From: an uncultured archaeon
Lineage (GTDB): Archaea > Thermoproteota > Nitrososphaeria > Nitrososphaerales > Gagatemarchaeaceae
NCBI GenBank assembly: GCA_963799775.1
Contig: CAWCYD010000003.1
Location: forward strand, 384,001 to 448,000
Direction of reading: 5' to 3'
Length of the DNA: 64,000 nucleotides
How positions within the stretch are numbered: the first letter of the stretch is position 1; the number at the start of each line of letters is the position of its first letter. The notes under the pieces were generated by a model. That model saw only the letters and a list, made by a program, of their open reading frames with translations, was not told the origin of the DNA and searched no databases. The translations under genes were made by a program, and so were the position numbers. Positions 21,153-27,765 of this stretch are shown piece by piece.

Positions 21153-21698
21153 TTGAGTTCATCCGGAAAGATCTGGCTGGTCACAGGCCCGCCAGGGATA
21201 GGAAAATCCACCCTGGTGGCGAAGGTAGTCTACGCGGTCAGGTCAAGAGGGCATGCGGTGGGAGGATGCCTCACAAGAGAGGTGAGGGTCGGAAGGGAGC
21301 GCACAGGATTCATGCTCATCGACCTCCTTAGCGGCAACGAGGCCGAGCTCGCCTCTGTGAAGGGACTGGGACCGAGGGTCGGCAGATACAGGGTCAACAT
21401 CAAGAACCTATCTGGCCTCGGGGCAAGCTCCCTTCTGAGGGCCGCCGAGCTAGCGGACTTCATCGTGATTGACGAGGTAGGCCCTATGGAGCTCACGAGC
21501 CCCGAGTTCAGGAAAGGCGTGAGCGCCTGCCTCAAGACAGCCAAGCCCATGCTCATCGTGCTCCACGAGAGCATGAAAGACCCGTTGATGACGGAGATCA
21601 CCGGGCAGACGAACAAGGAGCTCGTCGAGCTGACGCTCCACAACAGGGAGAAGATGGCGAATGAGCTTCCGGCGGAGATTTCATCAAGTCTGGGGTAA
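21153..21698 (+). CDS. Nucleoside-triphosphatase (NTPase_1/THEP1)
   Basis: LVTGPPGIGKST, IVIDEVGPME. Confidence 0.88.
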   Translation: MSSSGKIWLVTGPPGIGKSTLVAKVVYAVRSRGHAVGGCLTREVRVGRERTGFMLIDLLSGNEAELASVKGLGPRVGRYRVNIKNLSGLGASSLLRAAELADFIVIDEVGPMELTSPEFRKGVSACLKTAKPMLIVLHESMKDPLMTEITGQTNKELVELTLHNREKMANELPAEISSSLG

Positions 21699-21814
21699 GG
21701 CGCCTGCGAGACACGCTCGCCGGCGTCGCGGCATGCGGTCGGTTTTACGGCTCGTCGCATCTGCGCTGAAATAGGTCAGGATCATTTCTATTCACGAAGA
21801 CCTCCGGCAAAGAC

Positions 21815-22820
21815 TTGGCGCAGATCGTAGGACTCTGGCTGGCAGAAGGCGATCACAAGACATTACGTGAGGTCACCTTCACCAACAATGACTCGAAACT
21901 CATAACCTTCTTTCACCACGTTCTTTGGGAGCACTTTACGCCACGTAACCCGCCAAGAGTCTACGTCTACCGACCGTCCAAGGATGCAACCTTCGACCGT
22001 CCGGTAATGGGCGCAGTTTACAGGTATTACATTGACCGACGGGCCAATGTGCCGTATTACATCTACAGAGTCTCTGGAGTTGAATTAGCGAGAATCTTGA
22101 GAAGAACCTCGCAGACGATATGCGCTGATTCGTCCAATTATCGGGGAATACTTCAGGGGTTCTTTGCCGGAGAAGGCAATATCAAGGAAACCATTGCTCA
22201 TTATTCGAGAGTGCTTAGAATCGCTCAAGGTAAGAGACTCGCTATTCTTGAGCGGATCTTGCGCTTTTTGAGTGTGAAGTTCAGCTACAAGCTGTCAGAA
22301 AGCTCCTACGTAATTTCGGGTCGAGACAACTTGGAAAAGCTATGGAGCATCGGCGTAAGCGAACTGCATTCGAAGAAGCACGCAAAATTTGCTGCTATGA
22401 TGTCCTCGTACCAACAATATCATTATCGACGAGGCTATCTCAGTGCTCGAATATTAGAGATCCTTTCGTTGCCCTTGACTACTCGCCAAATTGCCACCCG
22501 AGTGAATCGGGGTAAATCAAGGGTAAATCATCTATTGACTGCGCTCTGCCGGAAAGGCGAAGTCGAAATGTTCAAGGTTAGAAGCTCATATTATTGGGTA
22601 AGGAGCGACCAACAATGCGTAATAATCTCTAAGGAGAAGTCCACGATTCTAGAAGCGCTCTCCTGTCCTCGGCGACTATCGGAGATCGCCAAGGGCCGTC
22701 AACCGCACCGAGAAGTCAGTTTCCCATAGACTTGCAGAGTTGAACAGGCTCGGTCTTGTCATGAAAGCAAACTCTAATTGGCGAGCAATCGAGGTATCGA
22801 AGCGGGTGATTGTCAAATAA
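21815..22820 (+). CDS. Double-motif LAGLIDADG homing endonuclease with C-terminal HTH regions (frameshift ~22693; true start probably slightly upstream)
   Basis: Motifs DLAQIVGLWLAEGD and YRGILQGFFAGEGNI; visibly more AT-rich than flanks; corrected frame ends EVSKRVIVK* at 22820. Confidence 0.78.
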
Positions 22821-23496
22821 CGCTCATCGGTGGGGTCGATGAGGCCGGGAGAGAGCACGACGAAAAGTCGTCTCCCCGCGAGGCTGCGTACTCGGCCCGC
22901 TCGCGGTCGCAGGCGTCTCAATAGAATCATCTAGGCTGCAGGAACTCTCTGAGCTGGGGGTCAAGGACTCGAAGCTCCTCTCACCCAGCCAGCGGGACTC
23001 CCTCTACCCGGAGATCAAGAGAATCTGCAAGGGCGTCGAAGTCTCCTGCATCCCCCCGAAGATGATCGACCGATACGTCAGCAGGGGCAAGAAGTACAGG
23101 CGCCTCAACTACCTCGAGACCATCCACATGGCGAAGGTCATCGACGCGCTCTGCGTCGACGAGGTATTCGTCGACGCTCCGGACGTCAACCCGCCGAGGT
23201 TCACGATGGAGCTCGCCGAGCTGCTCACCACGACCCCACGGATAGTCGCCGAGCACAAGGCGGACGTCAACTACGCGGTCGTCTCCGCCGCCTCGATAAT
23301 CGCGAAGGTGGAGAGGGACCTCGAGGTCGCTGCGCTCAGGGAGATCCACGGCGACTTCGGCTCAGGCTACCCCTCGGACCCTGACACGATAGCCTTCCTG
23401 GAATCATGGGTGAAGAGGCAGAGCTCGCAGCCCGAGTTCGCCCGCAAGAGCTGGAAGACGTGGGAGAGGATAGTCCCGCTCCCCACCCTCGACTAG
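22820..23496 (+). CDS. rnhB: Ribonuclease HII, spliced: join(22820-22851, 22881-23496), ACG start
   Basis: Spliced frame reads (M)LIGGVDEAGRGCVLGPLAVAG...GVKDSKLL...AEHKADVNYAVVSAASIIAKVERD...GSGYPSD; 648 nt, in frame. Confidence 0.88.
22852..22880 (+). other. 29-nt bulge-helix-bulge mRNA intron in rnhB
   Basis: Central helix CGGG(22846-49)/CCCG(22875-78), bulges AGA(22850-52) and CGA(22879-81), intron stem GAG.ACGAC-GAAAA-GTCGT.CTC; cutting after the 2nd nt of each bulge gives GGG AG|A GGC = G-R-G. Confidence 0.85.
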
Positions 23497-24170
23497 TCAG
23501 CTCAGAAGCGCCGAGATCAGCGCGTGGTCCTTGTCGAACGGATGGAGGTCGACCACGCGCTCGACGACGAAACCAGCGTCCCTCAGCTTCTGGGCCTCTT
23601 CCTTGAAGACCAGCGAGGGCTCCTTCAGCTGGTCTATGCTCCTCGCTTTGACGATGAGCAGGATCCTGCCGCCCTTTCTGAGATGCCTCTTCGCGTTCGT
23701 TATCGCGATCTCGGTCTGGTCCCTCTGCGCGATGTCGCAGTAGAGCACGTCCATCTTCCCGAAGCCACCGAAGCTCCCGGTCTCCCTTGCGTCAGAGATG
23801 AAGGGTATGACATTGGGCCTCGCCTTCGCCACCTTCTCGATGAACTCTCTGCCCACGCGGGCGGAGAGCTCCACCCCAACAACCATCCCGCCCTCGCCGA
23901 CGATGTCCGAGACGTGCGAGATTGTCGTGCCCGTCGAGGCACCGAGATATACGGCACCTTGTCCCCGATGCTTATGACATCGGGAGAGACCGCGCCCTTG
24001 AGTATGCCCCCCGCGAGCTTGCTGCGGTAGGGGTCCCATGCCCTGTACTCGCTGCCGTGTATCTTGACGAGGTCTTCGTCATACGCCGTGCGGCCTGGGA
24101 CGAGATTTCTTGTGAAAACCTTTCTCCTTCCCGGCTCCCGGCCTTCCATAACGAGGACGTTGCTTGCCAT
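23497..24170 (-). CDS. flpA: Fibrillarin-like rRNA/tRNA 2'-O-methyltransferase, frameshift ~23955
   Basis: EYRAWDPYRSKLA, YLGASTGTTISHVSD, YCDIAQRDQ. Confidence 0.9.
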
Positions 24171-25315
24171 CGCGCCGGAACTCTCTTCGTTGTTCGGGTC
24201 GGGGCGCGGGTGGTTCCTTATACTTTATCCTGATTTCATTTAGTCTCTTCTCCAACAGGCCCGTGAGCTCCCCCGCCTTCTCTCCCCTGAAGTAGTCGAT
24301 CCTCGCTGCGATGGCAATCTTGTTCGCCAACGTGCGCGCGATCTTCCCTCTCTGCCATTTGGGCGCCGTGTGGACCGCCTCGTGCTGGAAGAGTATCCCG
24401 TGCTTCGGAGGCCTGGAGCCTGTCCTTATCGCCCTGAAGAGCGCCTTCTCAGCCCCCAGGACCTGGATCGTGCTGGCCGGAAGCCTGGCCATGCGCTCCA
24501 GCCCTCCCGCCCTGGCGATCAGCCTCGCCCCTATCGTCGCCCCCGCGACCGCGGTGACGTTGGGGGCGATCTTGTTCATCGTAGACTCCACCGTCTCGGC
24601 GAGCCTCTCCCTCTCCGCTGCTGTCTTGACCGCGAGCTCGGCCAGACCGACGATGCGGCGCATGTCCTTGTCTGAGATGCTGCCCCCCTTCGAGCGCTCG
24701 GCAGCGAGCACGATCGCCTCGGCCTTCTTGTCGCCGAACCCTTGCTTCTCGAGGGTCTCCTTGTCGAAGGTGCCCCGCTTTCCGATGTCTATGATCAGCT
24801 TGGCCAGCGCCAAGTTGTCTTTCAGGATGTCTTGAAGCTCAGGGAAATGCAGGCTGTACCACTCCATGGTCCTCTCGGTCGTGATGTTGAGGAACCGGTC
24901 CAGCTCGTCGAGGGCCTGTATCGCGTTGACGAGATGTATGGTCCTCTTTGGAGGAGGCCTCGCTCACCTCCTTCTCCGCCGCGGCTATGGCCCGCGCGCG
25001 AGTGCTCTCAAACGCGCTCTTGGCGTCGGACGCCAGACCCGCCTTTGCAATGATTTCGAACTTCCGCGAGTCCAGCTCGTCGCGCTCGTCGTCCGTTATA
25101 ATCGAGGTCTCGATCCCGAACTCTTCCATCTTCTCCTTCGCGGGCAGGCTCGACACCTTCAGCCGCCCGATGCCCTTCTTCTTGACCCCCTCCGCCACCC
25201 TGCGCAGGTAATCCTCTGCTCCGCCCTCCTTGCCCGACTTTTCCGAGAGGATGATGTCGTCGCCCTGCACGACCACGAAGCCGGCTTCGGTCTCGTAGAG
25301 GATGGGCTCGGCCAA
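24079..25315 (-). CDS. nop5: C/D box sRNP protein Nop5/Nop56, frameshift ~24940
   Basis: EWYSLHFPEL, PASTIQVLGAEKALF, PPKHGILFQH, GKIARTLA. Confidence 0.9.
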
Positions 25316-25403
25316 GAAAAATTCGATTGATGCACCCTCAGGGCACGGATAAAGGTTGTCGCCAATGCGCATTGCTGCTTATTAGCGGAACCCACTTCTC
25401 CAG

Positions 25404-25986
25404 ATGTTGGAGTACCGCTGCGAGTACTGCGGGGCAGTCTTCGCGGGAAAGAGGCAAGTTATCGGTCACAAGGTAGGCAAACACATCAAAGTAACCTCGT
25501 TTGCAGAACGCGAAGATCAAGCTCGATGGGTTGACTGAACGTCAGATAGGATACATCGCGGCTTTCTTGGACGGCGAAGGCGGCATTCAAATCACTAGGA
25601 CGACAAGAAAGGACAGGGAATACACCATAGCCCTCCATCCTTGCGTCTACTTTACCAACACGAATCGCGAAGTAATCGAGACGTTGAGGAGGTGGTTCTC
25701 CGCAGGATGTGTCGTGACCGCCAAGGCAAACAAGGAAGGCCACAAGCCAACCCATGTCCTTCACATCACAGGGACGAGGAACATCGTCTCCCTCCTTACA
25801 GTCGTCAGGCCATGCCTCATAGTCAAAGCGAAACAGGCCGACACCATGTTACAATTTTGCAAGAGCCGCCTCACTCACAACGCCGGAAAGGACCGAAGAT
25901 ATACCGAAGAGGAATTATCATTATATATGACTCTCAAAGCACTGAACGAGAGAGGTGTAAAGAAACGCCAACACACGGAAGTCTAA
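25404..25986 (+). CDS. Single-motif LAGLIDADG homing endonuclease, probably with an N-terminal C2H2 zinc finger (1-nt shift ~25500)
   Basis: ATG 25404 reads MLEYRCEYCGAVFAGKRQVIGHKVGKH; after an extra T the frame continues to QIGYIAAFLDGEGGI...FTNTN...LIVKAKQA. Confidence 0.8.
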
Positions 25987-26148
25987 CGAAGGCGGGGAAA
26001 TGCCAAATGGCACCCTTTAGTCCGCGGTCAGACCCCCAAGATAGAAGGCAAACCGCACAAGGGTAAGATCCCCAAAGTGAGGAACACCCGGACCTTCGTC
26101 AAGAGATTCACACTAAAGAGAAAGCCCGGACAGAATTGGAGACTTTAG
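25965..26148 (+). CDS. rps30e: 30S ribosomal protein S30e, spliced: join(25965-25999, 26019-26148), ACG start
   Basis: Spliced product (M)[53 protein letters not shown], 54 aa; divergent from nop5. Confidence 0.9.
26000..26018 (+). other. 19-nt bulge-helix-bulge mRNA intron in rps30e
   Basis: Central helix GGGG(25994-97)/CCCT(26013-16), bulges AAA(25998-26000) and TTA(26017-19), intron hairpin TGCC-AAAT-GGCA, exon stem GGC/GTC; splicing gives GGG AA|A GTC = G-K-V. Confidence 0.88.
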
Positions 26149-27765
26149 ACTCCGATTCTTTCTCGGACGGAGAGGCCGCGGCTACAGAGTGGCTAGTCGC
26201 CTCTATCCTCTCCGGCGAGATCTCTTCCCGCCAGCAACTGGAGAGAGCAAAGAAAGTCGCCGCCCGGGATTTTCACCTCGGCCGCTTTCTTACCAACTCC
26301 GAGATTTACCTCGCCCTCGAGCCCAACGATCGCGAGGGAAGGAAGGAGCTGTTCCGGGTCCATCCTCGCCGGAGCGCCTCCGGAATAGTCATCGTGACCG
26401 TCTTCACGGCGCCAGCAAACTGCCCTCACGGGACGTGCACCTACTGCCCGGGCGGGCCGAGCGTCGGCACACCACAGAGCTACGTGCCCGACGGTCCCAG
26501 CATGCGCGGGGCCCGGAGCGTCGGCTTCGACCCCTATCTGCAGGCGCAGAAGATGCTGAAGAAGTACCTCGACAGAGGACATGAGGCGTCAAAGGTCGAG
26601 CTGATGGTCGAGGGAGTGCACCTTCCTCGCCATGCCGAGAGAATACCAGGAGTGGTTCCTCAAGCGGGCCTTCGACGGCCTGAACTGCGCCCCGTCTCCG
26701 TCTCCTTCCCTAGAGCAGGCGCACTCGACGAACGAGTCCGCAGACTATAGGTCCGTTGGATTGACGATCGAGACCAAGCCCGACTGGTGCAGACCTGAGC
26801 ACGTGGACATGCTCCTCTCATATGGGGTGACCAAGGTGGAGATAGGGGTCCAAGCGCTTCGAGACGAGATCCTGACAAGGAGCAACCGCGGCCACGGCGT
26901 CCAGGACACGCTCGATGCGTTCCAGGTGGCGAGGGACGCCGGCCTGAAGGTCACTGCCCACATGATGCCTGGCCTTCCGGGCTCGAACCCCGAGGACGAC
27001 CTAGCCGACCTGCTCAGGCTCTTCGAGGACGACGCCTTGCGCCCGGACATGATGAAGCTCTATCCTACCACGGTCGTGAAGGGGACGGCCCTCGCGAGGA
27101 TGTGCGAGGCGGGCCGGTACACGCCCTATGACCTTGAGACGGTGGTGAACCTGATCGCGGAGATGAAAGTCCACGTCCCCGCCTGGCACCGGATAATGAG
27201 GATCCAGAGAGAGATACCAGAGGCTGACATAGCGGCGGGAAGCAAGGCTGGCAACCTCCGGGAGATGGTCTTGGCCAAGCTGCGGGCAGACGGGCACACA
27301 TGCGGTTGCATCAGGTGCAGGGAGGTGGCGATGGACTCGCCTTCAGACCTAGACGAGGCGTCGCAGGGCGAGCTGGTCATCCGGAACCAGAGCTACCGCG
27401 CCTCAGGGGGGACGGAAGTCTTCTGCACGTACGAGTTCAGCAACTCCAGGAAACTGGCTGGTTTCATCCGCATGCGGGCTCCCTCGGCCGAGGCACACAG
27501 GCCCGAGATGGCAGACCATCAAGTGTGCATAGTCCGCGAGCTCAAGGTCTACGGGCGCGTCGTCTCGGTCGGATCCAGGGACGCTGCTGCCTTCCAGCAC
27601 CGAGGGCTCGGTCACTCGCTGCTCGAGGAGATGGAAGAGGAGGCGAGGCGAAGCTTCGACGCCCGCAGGTTGCTCGTGATGAGCGCCGTTGGAACCAGGA
27701 ACTACTACAGGAAGTTCGGGTACGAGAGGTCGGGGCCTTACATGGCAAAGGCGCTCGCGTCCTAA
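26136..27765 (+). CDS. elp3: Elp3 radical-SAM/GNAT tRNA uridine(34) acetyltransferase, frameshift ~26618
   Basis: CPHGTCTYCPGG, TIETKPD, AHMMPGLPG, IVRELKVYG, FQHRGLG. Confidence 0.92.

What the first reader, a model, noticed from the sequence alone, without database searches (positions are those of the whole stretch)
21815..26148. Repeated cassette: free-standing LAGLIDADG endonuclease + host 5' exon + BHB micro-intron, at two conserved genes
Seen: the same layout occurs twice within about 4 kb. A LAGLIDADG gene overlaps the 5' end of a conserved gene (rnhB; rps30e). The host starts at an SD-preceded ACG and is interrupted 11-12 codons in, inside its most conserved motif, by a 29- or 19-nt BHB intron. 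The two endonucleases differ in architecture and the introns differ in sequence, so this is not a duplication. Established: archaeal BHB introns are known mainly from tRNA/rRNA and from cbf5 mRNA; homing endonucleases normally sit inside the intron or intein; collaborative homing between a free-standing nuclease and an ORF-less intron is described for phage group I introns. Inference: the endonuclease cuts the intron-less allele, the micro-intron destroys that site, and host EndA splicing restores the gene, so nuclease, exon 1 and intron would spread together by gene conversion. I know of no description of this for archaeal mRNA introns.
Basis: partly seen in the sequence, partly recalled or inferred. 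Interest (0 to 1): 0.95.

Follow-up and report, generated by a model that had tools for sequence, protein, structure and literature searches.

The report
Homing nuclease plus micro-intron cassettes
Two essential-type genes of this archaeon (RNase HII and ribosomal protein S30e) are each split near their start by a tiny intron of the tRNA-splicing kind and each has a selfish DNA-cutting enzyme gene parked directly in front, a pairing that recurs in well over a hundred archaeal loci and looks like a previously undescribed way for introns and nucleases to spread together.

Summary
rnhB carries a 29-nt intron (window 22852-22880) and rps30e a 19-nt intron (26000-26018). Both fold as canonical bulge-helix-bulge (BHB) motifs, and the predicted cuts restore the conserved proteins exactly. 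Each has a free-standing LAGLIDADG gene directly upstream. HEG1 is a two-motif monomer with winged helices. HEG2 is a zinc finger plus one motif. In relatives, the nuclease almost always comes with the intron. For rnhB: 9 of 9 relatives, 24 of 24 species genomes spanning Nitrososphaeria and DPANN-type labels, and 74 of 75 metagenome loci. For rps30e: 11 of 12. The two exceptions are a broken HEG2 and an rnhB whose target motif is altered. Intron-only alleles exist. Helices covary while intron sequences are unrelated. Two loci carry the rnhB intron 9 nt further 5', inside the same conserved 18-bp stretch. A truncated copy of the original rnhB 5' end survives upstream of HEG1, so nuclease, replacement exon 1 and intron arrived as one unit. 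Collaborative-homing-like spread is the best reading (about 0.6); nuclease cleavage and RNA splicing remain untested. The "ACG start" is doubtful for rnhB, where a conserved ATA overlaps the nuclease stop. For rps30e it is a lineage trait, not a cassette trait.

The parts
21713..21728 (+). Decayed remnant of the original rnhB 5' end (old exon 1 copy), 14 nt after the stop of the upstream NTPase gene
   Evidence: In nuclease-less relatives (L002, L005, L006) rnhB starts at this place. In nuclease-bearing relatives (L007, L003, L004, L012) a 20-24-nt copy of that start survives here and breaks off 9-11 nt before the intron site. The window's copy has ACG for ATG and lacks one codon.
21794..22820 (+). 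HEG1: free-standing two-motif LAGLIDADG gene with C-terminal winged-helix domains. It has one frameshift, an extra G in the run at 22693-22695.
   Evidence: The first TTG is at 21815. An in-frame ACG at 21794 lines up by eye with the ATG of L008/L010. The acidic residue at the end of each LAGLIDADG helix is invariant in 19/19 homologues. Single-frame copies exist in L007, L012 and L246.
22804..22810 (+). SD-like GGGTGAT inside the last codons of HEG1, 6 nt before the ATA and 9 nt before the ACG
   Evidence: It is conserved in all nuclease-bearing loci, including those with DPANN-type labels, where it precedes an ATG or GTG that overlaps the nuclease stop.
22817..22851 (+). rnhB exon 1 (replacement copy). 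The candidate start is ATA at 22817-22819, overlapping the HEG1 stop TAA at 22818-22820.
   Evidence: It encodes the conserved N-terminus up to the first two bases of the Arg codon of the DEAGRG motif. Substitutions among relatives are mostly synonymous.
22852..22880 (+). 29-nt BHB intron in rnhB. Central helix CGGG/CCCG, bulges AG|A and CG|A, inner hairpin of 8 bp with one bulged base, outer helix only 1 bp.
22881..23496 (+). rnhB exon 2 (RNase HII)
   Evidence: Pfam RNase_HII, E 5e-40, profile positions 10-198. (single copy).
25404..25986 (+). HEG2: C2H2 zinc finger plus single-motif LAGLIDADG gene. It has one frameshift at the T run 25500-25502. Its last 22 nt overlap rps30e exon 1.
   Evidence: Finger and nuclease domain are one frame in 4 relatives (offset 96 nt) and out of frame in the window (97 nt). 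The closest solved relative by sequence is an archaeal rRNA-intron endonuclease, 3e54, E 3e-6.
25950..25957 (+). SD-like GAGAGGTG of rps30e, inside the HEG2 reading frame
   Evidence: It is homologous to the SD region of nuclease-less alleles.
25965..25999 (+). rps30e exon 1. ACG at 25965-25967 sits at the position of the ATG of other alleles.
26000..26018 (+). 19-nt BHB intron ('intron B') in rps30e. Central helix GGGG/CCCT, bulges AA|A and TT|A, inner hairpin TGCC/GGCA, outer helix 3 bp.
   Evidence: In one search the minimum-free-energy fold is exactly this motif.
26019..26148 (+). rps30e exon 2

Best explanation
Each locus is a mobile cassette made of a free-standing LAGLIDADG homing endonuclease gene and an ORF-less BHB micro-intron. 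The intron sits a few dozen bases downstream, inside the most conserved coding stretch of the host gene.

Shown here:
- The introns are genuine BHB elements at fixed sites.
- The host has the splicing enzymes: two EndA-family genes and RtcB.
- The nuclease genes are LAGLIDADG folds that keep their acidic active-site residues.
- Nuclease presence almost always implies intron presence.
- At rnhB the cassette (nuclease + new ribosome-binding site and start + new exon 1 + intron) lies inside the old gene. A truncated old exon 1 remains upstream.

Inferred:
- The nuclease cuts the uninterrupted conserved sequence, the DEAGRG-coding stretch in rnhB and the KAGKVR-coding stretch in rps30e.
- Repair copies nuclease, exon 1 and intron from a carrier allele.
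- The intron splits the target in the carrier's DNA and so protects it.
- EndA and RtcB remove the intron from the mRNA, so the host gene still works.
- The short old-exon copy upstream of HEG1 could serve as the left homology arm. That would let the cassette move between lineages with different upstream genes.
- The host gene is translated as the second cistron after the nuclease. At rnhB this would go through a start/stop overlap: ATGA or GTGA in DPANN-type loci, ATAA here.
For: (1) BHB geometry
- The strict geometry with the cut after bulge base 2 restores the conserved protein at all three intron sites.
- The chance rate for a fixed pair of positions is about 1e-3.
- The MFE fold of the rps30e segment is the canonical motif.

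(2) Covariation
- rnhB central-helix pair 1 is C-G in 9, U-G in 2, U-A in 6, A-U in 8 and G-U in 2 of 27 loci. Pair 4 is G-C in 18, C-G in 7 and A-U in 2.
- Intron lengths range from 22 to 52 nt with unrelated inner sequences.
- The intron B hairpin switches TGCC/GGCA, TGCG/CGCA, CACC/GGTG, CATC/GATG and GACC/GGTC.

(3) Co-occurrence, rnhB
- Of 33 relatives' loci, 9 have HEG1 or its remnant and all 9 have the intron. Of the 24 without HEG1, 21 lack the intron, 1 has it (L021), 1 is cut by a contig end and 1 is unclear.
- All 24 species-genome loci found by HEG1 similarity have rnhB directly downstream, interrupted at the same codon. A canonical BHB was found in 23.
- Of 80 metagenome loci, 75 show rnhB downstream and 74 of those are interrupted by a BHB intron.

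(4) Co-occurrence, rps30e
- Of 53 loci, 12 have HEG2 or its remnant and 11 of them have intron B. Of the 41 without HEG2, 5 have it.

(5) The exceptions fit the model
- L086 has no intron, and its HEG2 has a frameshift inside the LAGLIDADG motif plus an in-frame TAA.
- L228 has an intact HEG1 and no intron, but the target motif reads DDAARG instead of DEAGRG.

(6) L177 and L182 carry a canonical BHB intron 9 nt further 5', within the same 18-bp conserved stretch. What recurs is interruption of that stretch, not one insertion point.

(7) The old exon 1 remnant upstream of HEG1 breaks off 9-11 nt before the intron site, in two cassette lineages with unrelated junction sequences.

(8) Distribution and decay
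- Distribution is patchy on a GatE tree. HEG2 needs at least 6 changes in 20 genomes and HEG1+intron at least 4 in 18. Close sister genomes differ.
- Many copies are decayed by frameshifts or internal deletions.
- Genes upstream of HEG1 differ between lineages (TBP, PCMT, Trm1, pseudouridine synthase) while rnhB is always downstream.

(9) Nuclease identity
- The HEG1 model matches I-DmoI and I-Tsp061I. Both acidic motif residues are invariant in 19/19 homologues.
- HEG2 matches the solved archaeal rRNA-intron endonuclease 3e54.

(10) Splicing machinery
- The genome has two EndA-family genes and RtcB.
- A passage of PMC4090602 assigns the broad-specificity alpha2beta2 enzyme to Thaumarchaeota.
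Against: - No RNA evidence of splicing and no cleavage data exist.
- Intron-only alleles occur (L021 for rnhB; 5 loci for intron B). rps30e also has a second intron (A) with no nuclease. So these introns persist, and perhaps arise, without a nuclease.
- The exons of carrier alleles differ from nuclease-less alleles at several synonymous positions around the site. Those differences could give immunity without the intron.
- Within the genus, HEG1 identity falls roughly in step with host divergence: 70-80% to near relatives and 44-64% to far ones. Vertical descent with repeated loss would also give that pattern.
- Both nuclease genes of this genome carry a frameshift. Neighbouring essential genes do too, at homopolymer runs, so these may be assembly errors.
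- The rnhB motif has only a 1-bp outer helix, and its MFE fold slips register in the AGAGAG run.
- The top Foldseek hit for HEG1 is WhiA, a non-nuclease LAGLIDADG regulator.
- The species tree rests on one protein encoded 8 kb away.
- Old-exon remnants were significant only in Nitrososphaeria-type loci.
- Metagenome loci are not independent samples.
Confidence: 0.6

Rival explanations
1. Linkage by history only. The introns are old residents of rnhB and rps30e. Each nuclease gene landed beside one once, or targets some other nearby site such as its own insertion point. The pair is then co-inherited and lost piecemeal, and the intron plays no role in nuclease immunity.
For: - Intron-only alleles exist.
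- Intron A of rps30e has no nuclease partner.
- HEG1 divergence tracks host divergence within the genus.
- Synonymous differences around the site could protect carriers.
Against: - Two unrelated nuclease families show the same pairing.
- The pairing holds across phylum-level labels while intron sequences are unrelated.
- The only intron-less carriers have a dead nuclease or an altered motif.
- An alternative intron position falls within the same 18 bp.
- The old exon is truncated 9-11 nt from the intron site.
- The replacement exon 1 would recreate the full conserved stretch were it not for the intron.
Confidence: 0.2
2. Domesticated LAGLIDADG proteins. HEG1, and perhaps HEG2, no longer cut DNA. 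They act as DNA- or RNA-binding factors (WhiA-like regulator or maturase-like helper) for the downstream gene or its intron.
For: - The Foldseek top hit is WhiA, with the same LAGLIDADG-plus-helix-turn-helix layout.
- Full-length HEG1 homologues at 36-47% identity are kept across phylum-level labels.
- The nuclease is tightly coupled in translation to rnhB.
Against: - Both acidic motif residues are invariant in 19/19 homologues.
- Decay is frequent and presence is patchy among close relatives.
- The genes lie in low-GC islands.
- By recalled knowledge, EndA needs no protein helper.
Confidence: 0.1
3. Classic arrangement in disguise. HEG1 lies inside one large BHB intron whose 5' exon is the old exon copy upstream of the nuclease. 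On this reading the 'replacement exon 1' is intron sequence or a micro-exon.
For: - A copy of the original start (with ATG in L003 and L007) lies upstream of HEG1. That would solve the missing-ATG problem.
- Archaeal rRNA introns do carry LAGLIDADG genes. This is a statement in a passage of PMC2738675.
Against: - The old copy is decayed in the window (ACG, one codon missing) and in L004. It lacks the DEAGR codons.
- The replacement exon 1 shows mostly synonymous change.
- No old copy was detected in most DPANN-type loci, which have an ordinary ATG or GTG on the replacement exon.
- HEG2 has no such upstream copy.
Confidence: 0.04
4. Artefact or pseudogenes. The interruptions are assembly errors or disabling insertions in dead genes.
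For: This assembly has single-base frameshifts at homopolymer runs in fibrillarin, nop5, HEG1 and HEG2.
Against: - The interruptions are 19-52 nt long and lie at identical codon positions in well over 100 independent assemblies. They keep BHB structure through compensatory changes.
- Both genes are single-copy.
Confidence: 0.01

Closest known systems
Collaborative homing of a free-standing endonuclease and an ORF-less group I intron in phages, and the related trans-homing by T4 MobE (described in passages of PMC2790892 that I read; the original 2009 papers are recalled only)
   Same: The nuclease gene sits outside the intron and adjacent to it. The intron has no ORF. The intron sits in a conserved gene. 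The proposed logic is the same: the nuclease cuts the intron-less allele, the intron interrupts the site, and both are co-converted.
   Different: - The intron here is a protein-spliced BHB micro-intron of 19-52 nt, not a self-splicing ribozyme.
- The hosts are cellular archaea, not phages.
- The nuclease is LAGLIDADG.
- The rnhB cassette carries its own replacement exon 1 and start signals and leaves a truncated old exon behind.
- Cleavage at the intron site is not demonstrated here.
BHB intron in archaeal cbf5 pre-mRNA (PMC2738675; passages read)
   Same: It is a short (16-44 bp) ORF-less BHB intron in a protein-coding gene, patchily gained and lost, in lineages with broad-specificity EndA.
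   Different: - The host genes differ (rnhB, rps30e), as do the lineages (Nitrososphaeria and DPANN-type labels).
- A dedicated nuclease gene is linked to the intron here. That paper notes the cbf5 intron is too short to encode one, and says splicing had been confirmed for no other archaeal mRNA.
Archaeal rRNA/tRNA BHB introns that encode LAGLIDADG endonucleases (I-DmoI, I-Tsp061I, PDB 3e54)
   Same: The nuclease folds are the same and the splicing system is the same.
   Different: The nuclease gene here lies outside the intron, upstream of exon 1. The intron itself is far too small to hold it.
Free-standing homing endonuclease genes of T4-like phages (overview PMC2988022, seen only in a search listing)
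   Same: Intergenic nuclease genes next to conserved genes, with decay cycles and co-conversion of flanks.
   Different: In phage, immunity usually comes from target polymorphism (recalled). Here an RNA-level removable interruption accompanies the nuclease.
WhiA (LAGLIDADG plus helix-turn-helix transcription factor)
   Same: The domain layout resembles HEG1, and WhiA is the best Foldseek E-value.
   Different: By recalled knowledge WhiA lacks the catalytic acidic residues. HEG1 keeps both in 19/19 homologues and behaves like a selfish, decaying element.

Membership tests
Archaeal BHB intron (EndA/RtcB substrate) | Two 3-nt bulges on opposite strands, separated by a 4-bp helix | tested here: met
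   for both window introns. The rps30e MFE fold is the exact motif. The rnhB MFE fold keeps the 4-bp helix but slips register next to it.
Archaeal BHB intron (EndA/RtcB substrate) | Cuts at the bulges give a functional joined product | tested here: met
   The predicted cuts restore the conserved DEAGRG and TKAGK-VR contexts in frame in all intron-bearing loci analysed. The cut position within the bulge is taken from recalled knowledge of the motif.
Archaeal BHB intron (EndA/RtcB substrate) | Structure conserved through compensatory change | tested here: met
   (27, 16 and 14 loci for the three introns). The loci were picked by a scanner that requires pairing, so the percentage paired is not independent evidence. 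The variety of pair types is.
Archaeal BHB intron (EndA/RtcB substrate) | Host encodes splicing endonuclease and RtcB ligase | tested here: met
   Two tRNA_int_endo matches and one RtcB match
Archaeal BHB intron (EndA/RtcB substrate) | Spliced RNA observed | not testable with these tools
   No RNA run was listed.
LAGLIDADG homing endonuclease | LAGLIDADG fold | tested here: met
   HEG2: Pfam 23.8 bits against a cut-off of 22.5, and PDB 3e54 at E 3e-6. HEG1: Pfam below cut-off (18.4 bits), but a model with pLDDT 91 matches I-DmoI and I-Tsp061I at Foldseek probability 1.00.
LAGLIDADG homing endonuclease | Acidic residue at the end of each LAGLIDADG helix | tested here: met
   HEG1: E11 and E120 are invariant in 19/19 homologues. 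HEG2: the motif ends in DGEGG in the window and relatives. That these residues are the catalytic positions is recalled, not tested.
LAGLIDADG homing endonuclease | Site-specific double-strand cleavage of the element-free allele | not testable with these tools
   Needs protein and DNA substrates
LAGLIDADG homing endonuclease | Patchy distribution and a decay cycle | tested here: met
Collaborative homing (free-standing nuclease + ORF-less intron) | Nuclease gene outside the ORF-less intron but adjacent to it | tested here: met
Collaborative homing (free-standing nuclease + ORF-less intron) | Nuclease and intron are co-inherited | tested here: met
   Nuclease predicts intron in 9/9, 24/24, 74/75 and 11/12 loci. 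Loci are related to one another, so these counts are not independent trials.
Collaborative homing (free-standing nuclease + ORF-less intron) | [quoted passage not shown] | not testable with these tools
   There are only indirect pointers: the exceptions L086 and L228, the alternative intron site, and the old-exon truncation point.
Collaborative homing (free-standing nuclease + ORF-less intron) | Intron is a self-splicing group I ribozyme | tested here: not met
   The introns are 19-52 nt BHB hairpins. The cassettes may therefore work like this system without being members of it.
Classic mobile archaeal intron with internal nuclease gene | Nuclease ORF lies inside the intron | tested here: not met
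   The nuclease stop lies 31 nt (rnhB) and 13 nt (rps30e) upstream of the intron start. A coding exon 1 lies in between at rnhB and overlaps the end of the nuclease ORF at rps30e.

The most novel reading that the evidence does not exclude
Archaea host a widespread, unrecognised class of mobile element: a free-standing LAGLIDADG nuclease travelling with a BHB micro-intron that acts as its immunity patch. At rnhB it also carries a replacement 5' exon with its own translation signals. The rnhB version has crossed between Nitrososphaeria and several DPANN-type lineages. This would give the first mechanism for how protein-spliced introns enter and persist in archaeal protein-coding genes. It would also mean that many 'broken' rnhB and rps30e genes in archaeal assemblies are intact.
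Probability: 0.55. Interest if true: 0.9.

Novelty: new variant of a known kind. Interest (0 to 1): 0.86.

Why it matters
- According to the passages I read in PMC2738675, cbf5 was the only archaeal protein-coding gene with confirmed BHB splicing. My searches found no description of such introns in rnhB or rps30e, nor of a nuclease linked to one.
- This work adds three intron sites in two genes, supported by covariation in over a hundred loci.
- Two of the three sites are tied to selfish nucleases. That turns the open question of where archaeal mRNA introns come from, and why they persist, into one that can be tested at the bench.
- It affects annotation. These genes will be called truncated, frameshifted or missing, and marker-based completeness will be underestimated.
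- It offers two new nuclease families with predictable targets in highly conserved coding sequence.
- It raises a side question about non-AUG initiation: ATA overlapping a stop codon at rnhB, and ACG at rps30e.

Tried and rejected
- A third cassette in this genome. I inspected the seven shorter-frame LAGLIDADG matches outside the window, out of 22 in all. None has a conserved gene with a micro-intron directly downstream. One is an intein-like insert, three lie next to tRNA genes, one precedes a DUF354-like gene with only a 1-nt homopolymer frameshift, and two have no obvious partner.
- RNA evidence. No RNA holder was listed.
- Earlier findings.
- A vector for spread. No HEG1 relative was found in the phage or plasmid collections or in viral contigs.
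- An old-exon copy upstream of HEG2. My attempt to anchor the nop5 start in relatives failed because the N-terminus is too variable. I saw no copy by eye.
- Old-exon remnants in DPANN-type loci. Not significant against shuffles, with borderline p of about 0.055 in L117 and L120.
- Sequence search of HEG1 against solved structures. Nothing meaningful came up, so the fold search was needed.
- Energy z-scores of the two short folds are unremarkable (-1.2 and -0.4). The case for structure rests on geometry and covariation.
- Large-intron reading and artefact reading: considered and set aside (see rivals).
- Papers. The main text of PMC3082918 only lists RNase HII among replication genes. PMC13149111 does not mention cbf5.
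- Supplements of papers were not opened. Those of PMC2738675 list cbf5 introns and do not bear on rnhB or rps30e as far as the main text says.

Full report
**What is in the window**

Between an NTPase gene ending at 21698 and ELP3 starting near 26136, the plus strand holds, in order:
- a LAGLIDADG-type ORF (HEG1, 21815-22729, continuing in another frame to a TAA at 22818-22820);
- RNase HII;
- fibrillarin and nop5, both on the minus strand;
- a C2H2 zinc-finger ORF (25404-25538) running into a second LAGLIDADG ORF (HEG2, 25501-25986);
- ribosomal protein S30e.

Pfam finds RNase_HII only from profile position 10 onward, in 22885-23493. It finds Ribosomal_S30 only from position 12, in 26020-26145. 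The missing N-termini are encoded just upstream in other frames, 29 and 19 nt away. Both nuclease genes lie in low-GC islands: 0.46-0.49 and 0.50-0.53, against 0.58-0.66 around them. The genome has 2.47 Mb in 3 contigs and is 82% complete. It holds only these copies of rnhB and rps30e.

**Are the gaps BHB introns?**

I scanned with the strict geometry: a 4-bp central helix and two 3-nt bulges on opposite strands, with the cut after the second bulge base. The cut position is recalled knowledge of the motif.
- The scan picks introns 22852-22880 and 26000-26018.
- These are exactly the cuts that rebuild the conserved reading frames.
- The rps30e motif is complete: outer helix 3 bp, central helix GGGG/CCCT, inner hairpin 4 bp. 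It is also the minimum-free-energy fold.
- The rnhB motif has a strong central helix (CGGG/CCCG) and an 8-bp inner hairpin, but only a 1-bp outer helix. Its MFE fold slips one register in an AGAGAG run.
- Random pairs of positions in this genome satisfy the geometry about once in a thousand trials (404-444 of 400,000).
- The genome has two EndA-family genes and RtcB. A review passage assigns the broad-specificity alpha2beta2 enzyme to Thaumarchaeota (PMC4090602).

**Relatives: rnhB**

Record titles of the nearest loci call them Thaumarchaeota or Nitrososphaeria. I examined 33 rnhB loci from relatives (30, 3 more).
- Nine carry HEG1 or its remnant, and all nine have the intron at the same codon.
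- Of the 24 without HEG1:
  - 21 are intron-less with an ordinary ATG or GTG start;
  - one (L021, another genus) has a 30-nt intron at the same site with an ATG start and no nuclease;
  - one is cut by a contig end;
  - one (L018) I could not read.
- The intron's central helix changes by compensation: CGGG/CCCG, UGGG/CCCA, AGGG/CCCU, with a U-G intermediate.

A scan of one genome per species, using an HEG1 alignment, returned 24 loci. Their titles span Thaumarchaeota/Nitrososphaeria, Nanoarchaeota, Nanohaloarchaea, Aenigmatarchaeota, Iainarchaeum, Micrarchaeota, Woesearchaeota and others.
- In 24 of 24, rnhB follows directly and is interrupted at the same Arg codon.
- My scanner found a canonical BHB in 23.
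- Some of these repeat loci already counted among the relatives.

A metagenome scan kept the best 80 of 187 relatives.
- Four loci end within 202 nt of the nuclease.
- One (L172) is a truncated nuclease next to an unrelated gene.
- Seventy-five show rnhB downstream. Of these:
  - 72 have a BHB intron at the usual site. Sixty are canonical, 11 have one mismatch in the central helix, and one (L237) I read by eye after my peptide pattern missed it.
  - Two (L177, L182) have a canonical BHB intron 9 nt further 5', between the Glu and Ala codons of the same motif.
  - One (L228) has an intact nuclease and no intron, but its motif reads DDAARG instead of DEAGRG.
- Intron lengths run from 20 to 52 nt with unrelated interiors.

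**Relatives: rps30e**

In 53 loci with a readable 5' end, there are two intron sites.
- Intron B is the window's, 19-20 nt. Intron A is about 31 nt, six codons into the gene.
- Twelve loci have HEG2 or its remnant, and 11 of them have intron B.
- The exception (L086) has a frameshift inside the LAGLIDADG motif and an in-frame TAA in HEG2.
- Of the 41 loci without HEG2, five have intron B, all together with intron A.
- Intron B's hairpin covaries: TGCC/GGCA, TGCG/CGCA, CACC/GGTG, CATC/GATG, GACC/GGTC.
- HEG2 was found only in the window's own family: 12 of 96 genomes, against 0 of 304 in the other 19 families of the order.

**How the rnhB cassette sits in the gene**

In nuclease-less relatives, rnhB starts 14-19 nt after the NTPase stop. 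In nuclease-bearing relatives the same place still holds the first 20-24 nt of that gene. The copy is nearly identical to the empty allele in L007. It is decayed in the window (21713-21728: ACG for ATG, one codon missing). It breaks off 9-11 nt before the intron site.

Downstream of it come, in order:
- the nuclease gene;
- a conserved SD-like GGGTGAT inside its last codons;
- a new complete exon 1;
- the intron.

The cassette is therefore an insertion inside the old coding sequence that brings its own 5' end of the gene. The junctions of the genus-level lineage and of L012 are unrelated in sequence. Both stop at nearly the same point, as expected if a break near the intron site started the event. 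That last step is inference. Remnants were not significant in most DPANN-type loci. Genes upstream of HEG1 differ between lineages.

**Start codons**
- In DPANN-type loci the replacement exon begins with an ATG or GTG that overlaps the nuclease stop (ATGA, GTGA).
- In Nitrososphaeria-type loci the same position reads ATAA.
- So ATA at 22817-22819, coupled to termination of the nuclease frame, is the more conserved candidate. This is unproven.
- For rps30e, ACG aligns with the ATG of other alleles. It is present in 20 of the 53 loci, including 9 with neither nuclease nor intron. One locus (L082) has TCG.

**Are the nuclease genes real and mobile?**
- A 19-sequence alignment gives an HEG1 model at pLDDT 91. 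The model matches WhiA, I-DmoI and I-Tsp061I. The acidic residue ending each LAGLIDADG helix is invariant in 19 of 19.
- HEG2 matches by sequence the solved archaeal rRNA-intron endonuclease 3e54, and also I-MsoI. In four relatives the zinc finger and the nuclease domain form one ORF. In the window they are one base out of frame, at a T run.
- HEG1 of the window has an extra G in a G run.
- Fibrillarin and nop5 next door have similar single-base shifts, so assembly error is likely but not certain.
- Among relatives, HEG1 is single-frame in three loci, frameshifted in four (the window's among them) and reduced to its ends in two.
- On a GatE tree (one protein, 21 genomes), HEG2 needs at least 6 changes of state in 20 genomes. 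Intron B needs 6, intron A 4, and HEG1 with its intron 4 in 18. Close sister genomes differ in allele type.

**Reading**

The data fit a collaborative-homing-like system (passages of PMC2790892) transposed to protein-spliced archaeal introns.
- The nuclease targets an invariant coding stretch.
- The carrier must supply a working copy of that stretch.
- A removable interruption keeps the carrier from being cut.

The alternative intron position, the dead-nuclease and altered-motif exceptions, and the truncation point of the old exon are the strongest indirect pointers.

Against this reading:
- Nothing shows where the nucleases cut, or that the mRNAs are spliced.
- Introns also exist without nucleases.
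- Synonymous differences could protect carriers.
- Vertical descent with loss explains part of the pattern.

I put the mechanism at about 0.6 and the reality of the introns at about 0.9.

**Novelty**

My full-text searches for BHB introns in protein-coding genes, for RNase HII with BHB, for Thaumarchaeota or DPANN mRNA introns, and for free-standing LAGLIDADG genes at intron insertion sites in archaea returned only two kinds of work: the cbf5 studies and the phage collaborative-homing literature. PMC2738675 states that the cbf5 intron is too short to encode a nuclease and that no other archaeal pre-mRNA splicing had been confirmed (passages). Subscription-only papers are outside the library searched.

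Noticed in passing
Relatives' rps30e loci, e.g. L057, L072, L073; together with intron B in L064, L066-L069: There is a second BHB intron ('A', 31-46 nt) six codons into rps30e, with central helix GGAG/CUCC (GAAG/CUUC in L058). It occurs in 14 loci and has no nuclease partner. Five loci carry two micro-introns within the first 12 codons.
   Followed up: partly
Window 25965-25967 and the homologous position in 19 other loci: ACG stands where other alleles have the ATG of rps30e. This includes 9 alleles with neither intron nor nuclease, and one from another family (L042). L082 has TCG. This suggests non-AUG initiation of a ribosomal protein gene in this lineage.
   Followed up: partly
Window about 23955 (fibrillarin), about 24940 (nop5), 22693-22695 (HEG1), 25500-25502 (HEG2), 26136-27765 (ELP3 in two overlapping frames); also G000 C3 near 210,050: Single-base frameshifts in otherwise conserved genes, falling in homopolymer runs wherever I looked at the sequence. 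They are probably assembly errors and may lower the completeness estimate (81.7%).
   Followed up: partly
G000 C3:814700-815600, minus strand (locus L163): A free-standing LAGLIDADG ORF (216 codons) lies between a complete tRNA-like gene and a duplicated 3' fragment of a tRNA (T-arm plus acceptor end). This is the same 'partial duplication of the target flanking the nuclease' pattern as at rnhB.
   Followed up: partly
L018 (rnhB locus of a relative in another genus): rnhB has the GRG... continuation but no recognisable G-x-DEAG coding sequence upstream, and the NTPase frame runs into it. It may be a larger or differently placed interruption.
   Followed up: no
G000 genome-wide: There are 22 LAGLIDADG_3 matches. 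Most lie inside very long open frames (up to 1477 codons), which suggests many inteins.
   Followed up: no
Window 21794 compared with L008/L010: By eye, an in-frame ACG upstream of HEG1's first TTG lines up with the ATG of the HEG1 copies in two relatives. This would be a third ACG at a start position in this 4-kb stretch.
   Followed up: no
L228 (metagenome locus): RNase HII downstream of an intact HEG1 reads DDAARG where the family has DEAGRG. It may be a nuclease-resistant variant of a catalytic motif.
   Followed up: partly
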